Shown here: in pieces, positions 31,636 to 33,489 of the stretch
Layout of the letters: each line of letters begins with the position of its first letter
Numbering within the stretch: position 1 is the stretch's first letter
Assembly: GCF_056746865.1 (NCBI RefSeq)
Contig: NZ_CM163382.1
Length of the DNA stretch: 64,000 nucleotides
Direction: 5' to 3' (one strand)
The notes under the pieces: generated by a model
Databases searched by the model: none
What the model was told of the DNA's origin: nothing
The model's input: the letters and a program-made list of their open reading frames with translations, nothing else
Translations under genes and position numbers: made by a program

Positions 31636-33489
31636 TTACCTTTCCATTCTCCTTGCTCCACGCTCAGACAACCGTTCCCGTATCGCTGACCGTTGCTCGT
31701 TATTCAGCCTGGCAGTACGGTTACTGTCGTTTAGACGTTGCGGGCGGCTCTCCTGAACTTTCTTCCGAAAAACCTGACGTTGCTCAGGTGATGCTGATTG
31801 AACACGCTGGCGGGCGTTATCACGTTGCTGTTGGTTCAGTGGGCGCTGCTGTACTTTTTCCTTAAACACCTGGCGCTGCTCTGGTGATGCGGACTGAATA
31901 CGCTCACGCGCTGCCTCTTTTCGCTGCTGGTTCTGCGGGTTAGTCTGCATTTTCTCGCGAACCGCCTGGCGCTGCTCAGGCGAGGCGGACTGAATACGCT
32001 CACGCGCTGCCTCTCTTCGCTGCTGGATCTGCGGGTTAGTCTGCATTTTCTCGCGGACTGCCTGGCGCTGCTCAGGAGAGGCCGACTGATAACGCTGACG
32101 AGCGGCGTCCTTTTGTTGCTGGGTCAGTGGTTGGCGACGGCTGAACTCGCGGAAGTCGTCATAGCTCCCATAATGTTCCGCTTCATTAAATCGCTGTGCC
32201 GCAGCCTGACGTTGAGTATCTCGCGTAATGACTGGCGCAGTGTGTGTTCGTTGCTGAAACTGACTTGCTGCTGCCTGACGCTGACTGTCGCGCGATAGAG
32301 CAGGTAACTGCGTGGCGCTCATGCCGCCGTTGACATCGGTTTGGTGAAACCGCTTTGCCATATCCTGATCATGATAGGGCACACCATCACGGTAGTTTGG
32401 ATTGTGCCGCCATGCCATATTGTTATCAGTAAGATGCTCACCGGTGATACGGTTGAAATTGTTTACGTCGATATTGATGTTGTCGCCGTTGTGTTGCCAG
32501 CCATTACCGTCACGATGACCGCCATCGTGGTGGTGATAATCATCATCGTCATGATGATGATGGTCATGATCGTCGTCATCCCAGTCGATGCTGCTGAATA
32601 GCGCGTACGTGGTAGCAACGCCCATGCTATAGCCGAATCCGCGCACAAAGCTGTCAACAAACGGTTCTCCGGCTGGTGGTGGCAGATAAACTGGCGGATA
32701 AGCGGTATTGGCCCAACTGCCGTAAACCACGTTTGGGTTGTAGTTCGGAATATAAACCACATCCGGATTGGCTGGCTCAATGGTTATTACGGTCGGTGCA
32801 GGTTCTGCGACGACGGGGCTGGACGTAGAAACGGTATTTGATTGTGTGACAGGGGCGTTGGCGGGCTGATTTACCGGTACGACTTTTTTCGTTGTCGTGA
32901 TGATCTTTTGTTCAGTTGATGACTTCAGCGAGCCGGTTTGTTGCGCCAGTTGCCGCAATCGCTGTACCGAGTCCATCACGTCCTGCGGCTGCGCCAGAAA
33001 AGCATCGCCCAGGTTTTGCACCCATTGCGGGTTTTCGCCCATCAATGCCATCAACTGTGGAAAGGCCACCAGTGATTTGACGCTGGCGTCCCAGGGCTGG
33101 TCAGATACCGCCTGAATAGCAGCATCGCCTTGTTTAAGTGGATTATCGTGCGACCATTGCACTGCTTGAGCAACGTTTGTCGGATAGGTTGATGCCATCA
33201 GCACCTGCGAAAGTAGGGCGTCGGGATACAGCGCGACGGGCGCGACCCATTGATCTATTTGTGCAGTGCTGAATGCAGATTTGACGACGGCGGGTGTTAC
33301 GGGAGGTGCGGAAACCGTTGCAGGAAGCGTAACTGCGGAGATGTCAGGCGCATTCTGTTGTGTCGATTGCGCTTCCACAGGCGCTTCCACTGTGCGGCTT
33401 TTTATATATAGCCCGGCAGAGGCGGCACAAAGCCCGGCACTGCAAATTAGCGCCAGCACATGGGGTTTAAACGGCAAAGTCATTTTCAT
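31636..33489 (-). CDS. yacH: Uncharacterised secreted repeat protein YacH (DUF3300-like), His/Asp-rich
   Basis: 617-aa ORF with N-terminal signal peptide, internal tandem ~32-aa repeats and an HHHHDDDD tract. Confidence 0.8.
   Translation of the reverse strand: MKMTLPFKPHVLALICSAGLCAASAGLYIKSRTVEAPVEAQSTQQNAPDISAVTLPATVSAPPVTPAVVKSAFSTAQIDQWVAPVALYPDALLSQVLMASTYPTNVAQAVQWSHDNPLKQGDAAIQAVSDQPWDASVKSLVAFPQLMALMGENPQWVQNLGDAFLAQPQDVMDSVQRLRQLAQQTGSLKSSTEQKIITTTKKVVPVNQPANAPVTQSNTVSTSSPVVAEPAPTVITIEPANPDVVYIPNYNPNVVYGSWANTAYPPVYLPPPAGEPFVDSFVRGFGYSMGVATTYALFSSIDWDDDDHDHHHHDDDDYHHHDGGHRDGNGWQHNGDNINIDVNNFNRITGEHLTDNNMAWRHNPNYRDGVPYHDQDMAKRFHQTDVNGGMSATQLPALSRDSQRQAAASQFQQRTHTAPVITRDTQRQAAAQRFNEAEHYGSYDDFREFSRRQPLTQQQKDAARQRYQSASPEQRQAVREKMQTNPQIQQRREAARERIQSASPEQRQAVREKMQTNPQNQQRKEAARERIQSASPEQRQVFKEKVQQRPLNQQQRDNARQRVQSASPEQRQVFRKKVQESRPQRLNDSNRTARLNNEQRSAIRERLSERGARRMER
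31753..32140 (-). repeat. yacH: About four tandem ~96-bp in-frame repeats inside yacH (SASPEQRQAVREKMQTNPQ... units)
   Basis: Repeated block ctggcgctgctcagg..ggactgaatacgctcacgcgctgcctct.ttcgctgctgg.tctgcgggttagtctgcattttctcgcg visible on plus strand. Confidence 0.8.

What the first reader, a model, noticed from the sequence alone, without database searches (positions are those of the whole stretch)
31636..33489. YacH: secreted protein with ~96-bp tandem repeats and an extreme His/Asp tract
The ORF contains about four tandem copies of a ~32-aa unit (SASPEQRQAVREKMQTNPQ..QQR.EAARERIQ) at 31753..32140 and a DDDHDHHHHDDDDYHHHDGGH tract at roughly 32521..32600. These are features of a repeat-length-variable, possibly metal-binding periplasmic protein. 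Its position directly downstream of the copper oxidase neighbourhood is not informative, but the His cluster invites a metal-binding hypothesis.
Basis: partly seen in the sequence, partly recalled or inferred. Interest (0 to 1): 0.35.

Follow-up and report, generated by a model that had tools for sequence, protein, structure and literature searches.

The report
E. coli yacH: variable repeats, His/Asp tract
This is the known but uncharacterised E. coli envelope gene yacH (DUF3300 family); its 96-bp repeats and its histidine/aspartate tract are real and differ in length between strains, but whether it binds metal is untested and its function is still unknown.

Summary
Window 31636..33489 (-) encodes the 617-aa E. 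coli protein YacH, which lies between lpd and acnB. Its only family match is Pfam DUF3300 (aa 75-333, E=1.9e-77).

There are four 32-aa (96-bp) units starting with SASPEQRQ at aa 469, 501, 533 and 565. Units 1 and 2 are 94% identical in DNA. A 24-residue tract (aa 302-325) holds 9 His and 12 Asp.

Both features vary in length, in frame, among complete E. coli genomes:
- Repeats: about 53% of genomes have four copies and about 45% have three. Five-copy alleles also exist.
- His/Asp tract: at least five length classes.

In Salmonella Typhimurium, an 8-bp deletion inside the equivalent tract makes yacH a pseudogene.

Across about 9,500 DUF3300 clusters, the core is acidic and conserved. The tract is an expansion of a short conserved loop. 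The C-terminal tail is not conserved in sequence but is almost always Arg-rich and basic.

The fold has no solved relative. A link to CpxP/Spy was not supported.

The best reading is an exported envelope-stress protein, probably anchored in the inner membrane, with charge-based low-complexity modules. Metal binding is chemically plausible but untested.

The gene is already known. Interest is modest.

The parts
31636..33489 (-). yacH coding sequence (617 aa plus stop)
   Evidence: ORF list. RefSeq annotates the 100% identical hit as yacH, DUF3300 domain-containing protein. Synteny is lpdA-yacH-acnB.
33412..33489 (-). N-terminal export segment, aa 1-26. Either a signal peptide (possible ASA|G cleavage site) or, more likely in Enterobacteriaceae, an uncleaved signal-anchor.
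   Evidence: Kyte-Doolittle 19-residue maximum is 2.04 at aa 11-29. Approximate Hessa insertion energy is +0.4 kcal/mol, against a family median of +3.4 for N-termini. AF2 predicts a helix at aa 9-23. Inference only; not tested.
33274..33411 (-). Pro/Ala/Thr/Val-rich spacer, aa 27-72; variable between alleles
   Evidence: pLDDT below 50-57. dN/dS is 1.3 against K-12. Indels appear in allele L006.
32491..33267 (-). DUF3300 (PF11737) match, aa 75-333. Helical N-part aa 75-184, then a beta-rich part.
   Evidence: Pfam E=1.9e-77, 260 bits against a cut-off of 25. AF2 pLDDT is 95-98 over aa 70-200 and 94-95 over aa 230-270. dN=0 over aa 73-190 against K-12.
32761..32919 (-). Hypervariable internal linker, aa 191-243; a mosaic segment between allele classes
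   Evidence: Nucleotide identity to K-12 is 79.5% here, against 97-100% in the flanks. dS is 0.98, against 0.05 (lpd) and 0.10 (acnB).
32587..32643 (-). Glycine-zipper-like hydrophobic segment, aa 283-301 (GFGYSMGVATTYALFSSI)
   Evidence: Family consensus is G.xFGxGxAxxxALWG. Kyte-Doolittle is >=1.6 in 54/107 family members but below 0.9 here. Approximate insertion energy is +6.9 kcal/mol here, so it is not a transmembrane helix in E. coli.
32515..32586 (-). His/Asp tract, aa 302-325 (DWDDDDHDHHHHDDDDYHHHDGGH)
   Evidence: Read directly from the sequence. pLDDT is below 50, so it is disordered. TRF finds a 9-bp period at 32540-32574. It is length-polymorphic. It is an expansion of the family loop W-G-(H/R)-G-D.
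32374..32484 (-). Conserved post-tract motifs, aa 336-372: NINIDVNNFN (alternating Asn/Asp strand) and WRHNPNYRDGVPY
   Evidence: Family consensus is VxINVNRxN...WxHNPxHRxGVxYRD. pLDDT is 84-94 around aa 340-380.
32170..32289 (-). Q/R-rich imperfect duplication, aa 401-440 (RDSQRQAAASQFQQRTH / RDTQRQAAAQRFNEAEH)
   Evidence: Sequence. Predicted helices at aa 399-412 and 423-436. This block is duplicated again in the 662-aa alleles such as P0024.
31702..32181 (-). Array of 96-bp / 32-aa repeats: half-unit U0 plus U1-U4. Each unit is two short helices capped by SASPEQ and TNPQ/RPLNQ.
   Evidence: TRF. Unit coordinates and identities. Helix pattern in two AF2 models. Copy number varies across strains.
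31639..31701 (-). Basic C-terminal end, aa 597-617 (NEQRSAIRERLSERGARRMER)
   Evidence: pI is 11.9 for aa 591-617. It is conserved among Escherichia alleles. 78 of 107 family members end with at least 2 Arg/Lys in the last 6 residues.

Best explanation
The locus is yacH, the Escherichia member of the large DUF3300 family of exported proteobacterial proteins.

SHOWN:
- The protein has an N-terminal hydrophobic export segment and a disordered Pro/Ala/Thr spacer.
- It has a strongly conserved, acidic DUF3300 core with no solved structural relative.
- A disordered His/Asp tract sits exactly where other family members have a short W-G-H-G-D loop.
- A conserved Asn/Asp-ladder strand and a WxHNPxYRxGVPY motif follow the tract.
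- A 245-residue tail rich in Arg and Gln follows. Its Escherichia-specific part is the 32-aa repeat array.
- The repeats change copy number in frame (3, 4 or 5). Units 1 and 2 are 94% identical in DNA, which is enough to support unequal recombination or slippage.
- The tract changes length in frame through slippage of its GAT/GAC/CAT/CAC codons. In Salmonella an 8-bp deletion there knocks the gene out.
- The gene is under purifying selection in E. coli, is dispensable, and is reported to respond to envelope stress (CpxR, Rob, ampicillin, cationic peptides).

INFERRED (mechanism):
- In Enterobacteriaceae, YacH stays tethered to the inner membrane by its N-terminus and projects into the periplasm.
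- The DUF3300 core is the specific functional module.
- The two low-complexity modules act through charge, not through precise sequence.
- The His/Asp loop (net -11, 9 His) is a low-affinity binding site for divalent cations (Zn/Ni/Cu type) that also titrates with pH.
- The basic tail of short capped helices (net about +21) binds anionic envelope material or acts as an extensible spacer. This would be comparable to the repetitive charged domains of TolA and TonB, and would explain why changes in copy number are tolerated.
For: Identity and architecture:
- Pfam DUF3300, E=1.9e-77.
- Present in 5425 of 5426 complete E. coli genomes and annotated yacH.
- Synteny lpdA-yacH-acnB.

Length variation:
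- Allele alignment.
- More than 20 tract variants and 3-5 repeat copies among 120 cluster representatives.
- Evenly spaced 60-genome samples of the ranked hits from 5416 genomes. C-terminal span: 555 bp in 32, 459 bp in 14, and a divergent class that I take to be three-copy in 13. Tract region: 301 bp in 49, 307 in 6, 262 in 2, 295 in 1, 325 in 1.
- Repeat units 1 and 2 are 94% identical.
- Salmonella frameshift GATCATCA at Asp284 (PMC3391293, PMC10048834).

Selection:
- Overall dN/dS is 0.19, and dN=0 in the DUF3300 N-part.

Family-level pattern:
- 9521 clusters at E<=1e-3.
- The loop consensus, with independent Asp/His expansions at the same site in several lineages.
- Tails are basic in 102/107 (median +16; Arg 15%, Lys 0.7%). 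The core is acidic in 107/107.
- Orthologs in Kluyvera, Enterobacter, Raoultella and Buttiauxella have different tandem repeats in the same tail.

Topology:
- The N-terminal segment has an insertion energy near 0. The internal Gly-zipper is +6.9.

Structure:
- The core has pLDDT above 94. The tract has pLDDT below 50. The tail is short helices with no confident tertiary fold (pTM 0.28).

Expression and phenotype, from papers:
- CpxR-dependent. The deletion mutant survives protamine better. Repressed by protamine and by cecropin A (PMC9600279).
- Down in a rob mutant (PMC7537768).
- Promoter induced by ampicillin (PMC8865558).
- Induced by cathelicidin in UTI89 (PMC6737244).
Against: - No experiment or homology links YacH to metals.
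- I retrieved no report of metal regulation. My multi-term literature search did not require 'yacH', so it returned nothing specific.
- Some family members have no His at the loop. Some natural E. coli alleles lack 13 residues of the tract (L005; 2 of 60 sampled genomes). The full tract is therefore not essential.
- The tract and repeats could be functionally neutral, slippage-prone filler.
- Cleavage of the N-terminal segment (ASA|G) cannot be excluded.
- The insertion-energy scale I used was entered from memory, so those numbers are approximate.
- My simple scan found no CpxR box upstream.
- The AF2 tertiary arrangement of the tail is not reliable.
Confidence: 0.5

Rival explanations
1. Neutral-filler reading. 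The His/Asp tract and the 32-aa repeats are tolerated low-complexity insertions produced by replication slippage and unequal recombination. They have no role beyond being flexible spacers, and all function sits in the conserved DUF3300 core and the post-tract motifs.
For: - Both regions are disordered or lack a stable tertiary fold in AF2.
- Both vary in length among healthy strains, including a 13-residue loss from the tract.
- Tail sequences are not conserved between genera.
- The typical family loop is only 4-6 residues long.
Against: - Composition is conserved where sequence is not. Tails are basic in 102/107, with Arg favoured over Lys about 20-fold.
- Independent loop expansions in several lineages are all rich in Asp, His, Gly and Tyr rather than random.
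- dN/dS in the repeats is 0.17 and in the tract 0.06, which is not neutral.
- All sampled length changes in E. coli are in frame.
Confidence: 0.25
2. Chaperone/adaptor reading. The C-terminal repeats are CpxP/Spy/ZraP-like LTXXQ helical hairpins, so YacH would be a periplasmic ATP-independent chaperone or a modulator of stress signalling.
For: - The motif SPEQRQAVREKMQ resembles CpxP LTPEQQAVLNEKHQQR.
- A Smith-Waterman alignment of the YacH tail against mature CpxP scores 82, against a shuffle mean of 52 +/- 7.7 (z=3.85, 0 of 500 shuffles reach it). The alignment pairs both CpxP LTXXQ motifs with repeat starts.
- yacH is reported to be regulated by CpxR.
Against: - A Pfam scan of the tail gives no LTXXQ or Metal_resist hit, even at E<=10.
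- A profile of Escherichia tails against all PDB sequences does not retrieve CpxP, Spy or ZraP at E<=10.
- Spy (z=1.3) and ZraP (z=2.2) are at or near background.
- BLAST with composition correction gives only E=1e-3 in a three-sequence database.
- Tails in other genera lack the motif.
- No confident hairpin-cradle fold is predicted (pTM 0.28).
Confidence: 0.07
3. Type I membrane topology. After signal-peptide cleavage, the glycine-zipper segment (aa 283-301) spans the inner membrane. The His/Asp tract and the Arg-rich tail would then be cytoplasmic (positive-inside rule), like the His-rich cytoplasmic loops of metal transporters.
For: - The Gly-zipper segment reaches Kyte-Doolittle >=1.6 in 54/107 family members.
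- It is followed by an interfacial W..W motif.
- The tail is strongly positive in 102/107.
Against: - Approximate insertion energy is +6.9 kcal/mol in E. coli, with a family median of +3.2. Only 13 of 107 are <=1.5.
- AF2 folds the segment as short strands packed on the core.
- Several family members have lipoprotein signal sequences, and a further transmembrane helix would be an unusual combination with these.
- The residues immediately after the segment in E. coli are strongly acidic.
Confidence: 0.1

Closest known systems
DUF3300 (Pfam PF11737) family, including annotated E. coli K-12 YacH (b0117) and Salmonella STM0157
   Same: Full-length homology, with the same domain order and motifs. 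The K-12 allele is also 617 aa and is 93.7% identical in DNA.
   Different: The window allele belongs to a minority class. Only 148 of 5425 genomes are >=99% identical. It has a different internal linker. Unlike the non-enteric members I checked, E. coli yacH has no DUF2950 gene downstream.
TolA domain II and the TonB Pro-rich spacer (inner-membrane-anchored, periplasm-spanning proteins with repetitive charged segments); from general knowledge
   Same: An N-terminal membrane anchor, a low-complexity spacer, and a long repetitive charged helical or extended segment whose length can vary. This is a 'works like' analogy for a tether or spacer.
   Different: There is no sequence or fold homology. 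YacH has an acidic globular core in the middle, and its tail is rich in Arg/Gln rather than Lys/Ala/Glu or Pro. No energy-transducing partner is known.
His/Asp-rich metal-binding segments of periplasmic zinc proteins (the ZnuA His-rich loop, the ZinT N-terminus) and His-rich tails of SlyD and HypB; from general knowledge
   Same: A disordered stretch dominated by His and acidic residues. Chemically, such a stretch can bind Zn, Ni, Co or Cu.
   Different: There is no homology to those folds. I retrieved no metal regulation or metal phenotype for yacH. The tract is an expansion of a loop within DUF3300.
CpxP/Spy/ZraP LTXXQ family
   Same: Helices rich in Gln and Arg that begin with (S/T)PEQ. Weak pairwise similarity to CpxP (z=3.85). 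A reported link to the Cpx regulon.
   Different: It fails HMM and profile tests. Similarity to Spy and ZraP is at or near background.
Glycine-zipper envelope lipoproteins (SlyB/Pcp, OsmB, the YMGG family); from general knowledge
   Same: A conserved GxxxG/A-type glycine-zipper segment in an exported, stress-responsive envelope protein.
   Different: No Pfam Gly-zipper hit for YacH. The segment is embedded in a much larger protein. The resemblance comes from memory and was not tested structurally.

Membership tests
DUF3300 (PF11737) | Match to the Pfam HMM above the gathering score | tested here: met
   260.2 bits against a cut-off of 25, E=1.9e-77, aa 75-333 covering profile positions 2-227 of 227.
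DUF3300 (PF11737) | Conserved motif set: APxALYPDxLLxQxLMAxTYP, WDxSVKSL, VVYxPxYNPxxVYG, ALW..W loop, VNINVN, WxHNPxxRxGVxY | tested here: met
   Alignment A1 of 107 diverse members. Invariant or >=90% conserved columns include P89, D90, Y102, P103, W112, W133, D134, G161, P248, Y250, G257, W303 and R367. Loop alignment.
DUF3300 (PF11737) | N-terminal export signal | tested here: met
   Hydrophobic segment at aa 9-29. Family members carry signal peptides or lipoboxes. Whether cleavage occurs was not tested.
DUF3300 (PF11737) | Downstream DUF2950 partner gene. Reported as universal in rhizobia (PMC4653623), but not part of the Pfam definition. | tested here: not met
   E. coli yacH is flanked by lpdA and acnB. 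Loci L007, L008 and L009-L011 all have DUF2950 immediately downstream. I did not search for a DUF2950 gene elsewhere in E. coli.
CpxP/Spy/ZraP (LTXXQ) periplasmic chaperone family | Match to the LTXXQ or Metal_resist HMMs, or profile-level similarity to solved members | tested here: not met
   No such Pfam hit for the tail at E<=10. The Escherichia tail profile against PDB sequences does not retrieve CpxP, Spy or ZraP at E<=10.
CpxP/Spy/ZraP (LTXXQ) periplasmic chaperone family | Pairwise sequence similarity beyond composition | tested here: inconclusive
   CpxP z=3.85 (0 of 500 shuffles). Spy z=1.28. ZraP z=2.22.
CpxP/Spy/ZraP (LTXXQ) periplasmic chaperone family | Bent helical-hairpin cradle dimer | not testable with these tools
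   The tail model has pTM 0.28, so its tertiary arrangement is unreliable. I therefore did not use it for a fold search.
His-rich periplasmic metal-binding proteins (ZnuA loop / ZinT type) | Cluster of His and acidic ligand residues | tested here: met
   9 His and 12 Asp in aa 302-325. The best PDB sequence matches are His/FLAG tags.
His-rich periplasmic metal-binding proteins (ZnuA loop / ZinT type) | Homology to a known metal-binding fold | tested here: not met
   DUF3300 is the only Pfam hit. No NCBIfam hit. No PDB sequence or fold relative.
His-rich periplasmic metal-binding proteins (ZnuA loop / ZinT type) | Demonstrated metal binding, or metal-responsive regulation | not testable with these tools
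   This needs ITC/ICP-MS and expression data. The yacH papers I read contained nothing on it.
Phase-variable (contingency) repeat locus | Repeat changes shift the reading frame and switch the gene on or off | tested here: not met
   The repeat period is 96 bp, a multiple of 3. All length differences between the alleles and genomes I sampled, where full spans were recovered, were multiples of 3. The one out-of-frame event is the fixed 8-bp deletion in Salmonella Typhimurium lineages. That is a pseudogene, not a switch.

The most novel reading that the evidence does not exclude
DUF3300 would be a new fold with no solved relative. In YacH, an acidic His/Asp loop and an Arg-rich basic tail would form an electrostatic switch gated by metal or pH. 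Protonation of His or binding of Zn/Ni would neutralise the loop and release the tail, which would then bind anionic envelope material. This would tune envelope permeability to cationic antimicrobial peptides. Natural variation in tract length and repeat number would set the switch point in different E. coli lineages.
Probability: 0.08. Interest if true: 0.6.

Novelty: already known. Interest (0 to 1): 0.3.

Why it matters
yacH is one of E. coli's genes of unknown function. It is present in essentially every strain and belongs to a family of about 9,500 sequence clusters with no known function and no solved structure.

This analysis gives clear handles for experiments:
- Naturally occurring alleles with 3, 4 or 5 repeats, and with tracts of different length.
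- A conserved loop from which the His/Asp tract grew.
- A family-wide split between an acidic core and an Arg-rich tail.
- Published links to envelope stress and cationic peptides.

If the tracts prove functional, yacH would be a simple model for how low-complexity, charge-based modules work in the periplasm. If they do not, the finding is an ordinary case of in-frame repeat polymorphism in a non-essential gene.

Tried and rejected
- **AlphaFold database search.** afdb50 was not available.
- **NCBIfam.** No hit.
- **PDB sequence search.** Only purification-tag matches to the His tract.
- **CpxP/Spy LTXXQ membership.** The weak pairwise signal was not confirmed by HMM or profile tests. Rejected as membership and kept only as a low-probability rival.
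- **Tail-only AF2 model.** pTM was 0.28. I judged this too unreliable for a fold search, so I left the last fold-search job unused.
- **CpxR box scan.** I scanned for GTAAA-N5-GTAAA with up to 2 mismatches. Nothing was found in the yacH-acnB intergenic region, and the count across the window was at chance level.
- **Promoter/terminator scan.** Counts were no higher than in shuffled sequence. The terminator-like hits inside the repeats are on the antisense strand and recur simply because the DNA is repeated.
- **Genome-collection scan.** These were enough for Enterobacteriaceae orthologs but not for a census.
- **Multi-term literature search for yacH plus metals.** It did not force the yacH term and returned nothing relevant.
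- **Internal transmembrane helix (type I topology).** Considered, then down-weighted on hydrophobicity.
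Full report
**1. What is there**

The ORF at window 31636..33489 (minus strand) encodes 617 aa. It is 100% identical to yacH of E. coli strain 118UI. A match was found in 5425 of 5426 complete E. coli genomes, always annotated 'DUF3300 domain-containing protein'. In K-12 and six other strains it lies between lpdA and acnB.

The only protein-family match is Pfam DUF3300: aa 75-333, E=1.9e-77, 260 bits against a cut-off of 25. NCBIfam has nothing.

**2. The two features**

*Repeats.* Tandem Repeats Finder reports a 96-bp period at 31753..32153, with 79-87% matches and scores of 260-382. 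In the protein, SASPEQRQ recurs at aa 469, 501, 533 and 565.

- Units 1 and 2 are 94% identical in both DNA and protein.
- Unit 3 is 64-67% identical to them in DNA.
- Unit 4 is decayed, and a half-unit precedes the array.
- Each unit is predicted as two short helices that begin at SASPEQ and TNPQ.

*His/Asp tract.* The tract DWDDDDHDHHHHDDDDYHHHDGGH is aa 302-325, window 32515-32586. It has 9 His, 12 Asp and a net charge of -11. It is predicted to be disordered, with pLDDT below 50. The best PDB sequence matches for the whole protein are FLAG/His purification tags.

**3. Variation between strains**

Seven alleles taken from complete genomes are 581-619 aa long.
- Three or four repeat units occur on both the window-type and the K-12-type backgrounds, and the deletion boundaries differ between backgrounds.
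- The tract gains 'DH' in one allele and loses 13 residues in another.

Among 120 near-identical protein clusters:
- there are more than 20 tract variants, with the first His run ranging from 3 to 7;
- there are alleles with five SASPEQR motifs: 648 aa with five full units, and 634 aa in which one unit is shortened;
- there are alleles of 662 aa that carry an upstream 45-aa duplication.

I also took 60 genomes at even steps down the ranked hits from 5416 genomes.
- C-terminal region: 555 bp (four copies) in 32 genomes and 459 bp (three copies) in 14. A further 13 genomes gave only partial alignments. I take these 13 to be three-copy, because several share the annotation pattern of the 1764-bp three-copy allele L003.
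- Tract region: 301 bp in 49 genomes, 307 in 6, 262 in 2, 295 in 1 and 325 in 1.

Wherever the full span was recovered, the length difference was a multiple of 3.

In Salmonella Typhimurium, an 8-bp deletion (GATCATCA, Asp284fs) inside the equivalent tract makes yacH a pseudogene in 14028s, UK-1, SL1344 and D23580 (PMC3391293, PMC10048834). One E. coli strain (E69) has IS1 inserted in yacH.

So the repeats and the tract are both mutational hot spots, and the gene is dispensable. In E. coli it is nevertheless normally intact and constrained. Against K-12, overall dN/dS is 0.19, and dN is 0 over aa 73-190.

**4. The family**

An exhaustive HMMER search found 9521 representative clusters at E<=1e-3. 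The common architecture runs in this order:
1. an export signal (signal peptide or lipobox);
2. the DUF3300 core;
3. a glycine-zipper-like segment (G.xFGxGxAxxxALWG);
4. a short loop, typically W-G-(H/R)-G-D;
5. an alternating Asn/Asp strand (VNINVNRYN);
6. the motif WxHNPxHRxGVxYRD;
7. a long tail that is not conserved in sequence.

The E. coli His/Asp tract is an expansion of the short loop. Enterobacteriaceae orthologs (E. albertii, Kluyvera, Raoultella, Enterobacter, Buttiauxella) all have Asp/His/Tyr/Gly-rich expansions at that site. Several unrelated lineages have their own.

The tails differ completely in sequence. They often carry their own tandem repeats, such as LQNPTAQQQQRRENAKSH x3 or REAIKARHDNPTPQQQQ x3. 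Composition, however, is conserved:
- tails are net positive in 102 of 107 members, with a median of +16;
- tails contain 15% Arg but only 0.7% Lys;
- the core is net negative in 107 of 107 members.

In E. coli the tail has 41 Arg and 9 Lys. Conservation of composition without conservation of sequence argues for a charge-based role.

Outside Enterobacteriaceae, the DUF3300 gene was followed by a DUF2950 gene in each of the three representatives I looked up (five contigs). PMC4653623 reports this pairing as universal in rhizobia, with both genes induced in two RNA-seq studies. E. coli yacH has no such neighbour.

**5. Structure**

I ran AlphaFold2 with a 107-sequence alignment. It gave a mean pLDDT of 74.6 and pTM of 0.61. 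The core is at pLDDT 94-98, and the spacers and the tract are disordered.

- Foldseek against PDB found nothing at E<=1e-3.
- The AlphaFold database library was unavailable.
- A model of the tail alone is helical locally but has pTM 0.28.

The fold has no solved relative, so function cannot be transferred from structure.

**6. Topology**

The N-terminal segment of enterobacterial YacH is unusually hydrophobic for the family. Its approximate insertion energy is -1.1 to +0.4 kcal/mol, against a family median of +3.4. This suggests an uncleaved signal-anchor.

The internal glycine-zipper is too polar to span the membrane in E. coli, at +6.9 kcal/mol.

The scale values were entered from memory, so these numbers are approximate. 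Cleavage at ASA|G is not excluded.

**7. Published biology**

All of the following comes from the cited papers.
- yacH was experimentally confirmed as a CpxR-regulated gene. It is repressed by protamine, and it is cited there as repressed by cecropin A. The deletion mutant survives protamine better than the wild type (PMC9600279).
- It is strongly down-regulated in a rob mutant under butanol (PMC7537768).
- Its promoter is induced by ampicillin (PMC8865558).
- It is induced by a cathelicidin peptide in UTI89 (PMC6737244).
- It is listed among genes of unknown function (PMC12133099).
- Deleting it modestly raises recombinant protein yield (PMC7376861).

I retrieved nothing that links it to metals.

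**8. Explanation**

*Near-certain.* This is yacH, an exported DUF3300 protein whose low-complexity modules change length in frame by slippage or unequal recombination.

*Inferred.* It is a periplasmic, probably inner-membrane-tethered, envelope-stress protein.
- The conserved acidic core carries the specific function.
- The His/Asp loop is a site for divalent cations and protons.
- The basic Arg/Gln helical tail binds anionic envelope material or acts as an extensible spacer, by analogy with the repetitive domains of TolA and TonB.

*Rivals.*
- The tracts are neutral filler (0.25).
- The tail is cytoplasmic, in a type I topology (0.10).
- The tail is a CpxP/Spy-like chaperone (0.07). The pairwise signal to CpxP (z=3.85) was not confirmed by Pfam or by a profile search of PDB sequences.

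**9. Novelty and score**

The gene, its family assignment and its position are already annotated everywhere. The repeats and the tract are real but ordinary in kind: in-frame low-complexity polymorphism in a non-essential envelope gene.

What raises it slightly above routine:
- the family is large and has no known function or solved structure;
- charge is conserved family-wide while sequence is not;
- Asp/His expansions recur at one loop in independent lineages;
- the gene is a mosaic. The internal linker shows dS of about 1 between allele classes, against 0.05-0.10 in the flanking genes, and a third, deeply divergent allele exists in strain AST85.

Interest: 0.3.

Noticed in passing
window 32761-32919 (yacH aa 191-243); loci L001-L006: yacH is a recombination mosaic. 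Between the window allele and K-12, this linker has dS of about 0.98 and 79.5% nucleotide identity. The flanking lpd and acnB have dS 0.05 and 0.10. Only 148 of 5425 genomes carry an allele >=99% identical to the window's. Strain AST85 carries a third allele so divergent that megablast aligns only 98 nt, while its LpdA protein is identical.
   Followed up: partly
L017 about 5095-5870 (E. coli strain E69, CP089930.1): yacH is interrupted by an IS1 element (InsA/InsB ORFs) at about codon 365. This is a natural knock-out.
   Followed up: partly
Salmonella Typhimurium STM0157 (literature only): yacH is a pseudogene in strains 14028s, UK-1, SL1344, D23580 and a human-milk isolate. The cause is an 8-bp deletion (GATCATCA, Asp284fs) inside the codons of the Asp/His tract. 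LT2 keeps the intact 540-aa gene (PMC3391293, PMC10048834).
   Followed up: partly
L007 6666-7439; L008 2125-3129; L009 7437-8444: Outside Enterobacteriaceae, the DUF3300 gene is immediately followed by a gene for a secreted DUF2950 protein, which also has no solved relative. E. coli yacH lacks this partner. I did not check whether E. coli encodes DUF2950 elsewhere.
   Followed up: partly
Alignment A1 (107 DUF3300 family members): C-terminal tails are not conserved in sequence. They are nonetheless basic in 102/107 (median +16), with Arg at 15% against Lys at 0.7%, and they often carry lineage-specific tandem repeats. The DUF3300 core is acidic in all 107. A single Cys two residues before the conserved loop Trp recurs in many members.
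   Followed up: partly
window about 30081-30097 (aceF-lpd intergenic) and about 36522 (downstream of acnB): Relative to K-12, the window lacks about 113 bp (64 + 49) in the aceF-lpd intergenic region and has an extra 28 bp downstream of acnB. These are probably small repeat-element indels. I did not identify them.
   Followed up: no
window 33691-36441 and 30078-31565: The mechanical ORF list over-extends two neighbours. acnB is listed from ATG 33691 (916 aa), but the RefSeq protein starts at VLEEYRK, window 33844. lpd is listed from GTG 30078 (495 aa), but the annotated start is MSTEIKT at 30141.
   Followed up: yes
window 31837-32108, plus strand: Four terminator-like hairpin+T sites lie inside the repeat array on the strand antisense to yacH. 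Two of them are identical copies 96 bp apart. They are a by-product of the repeated DNA, and their number is not above the shuffle expectation.
   Followed up: no
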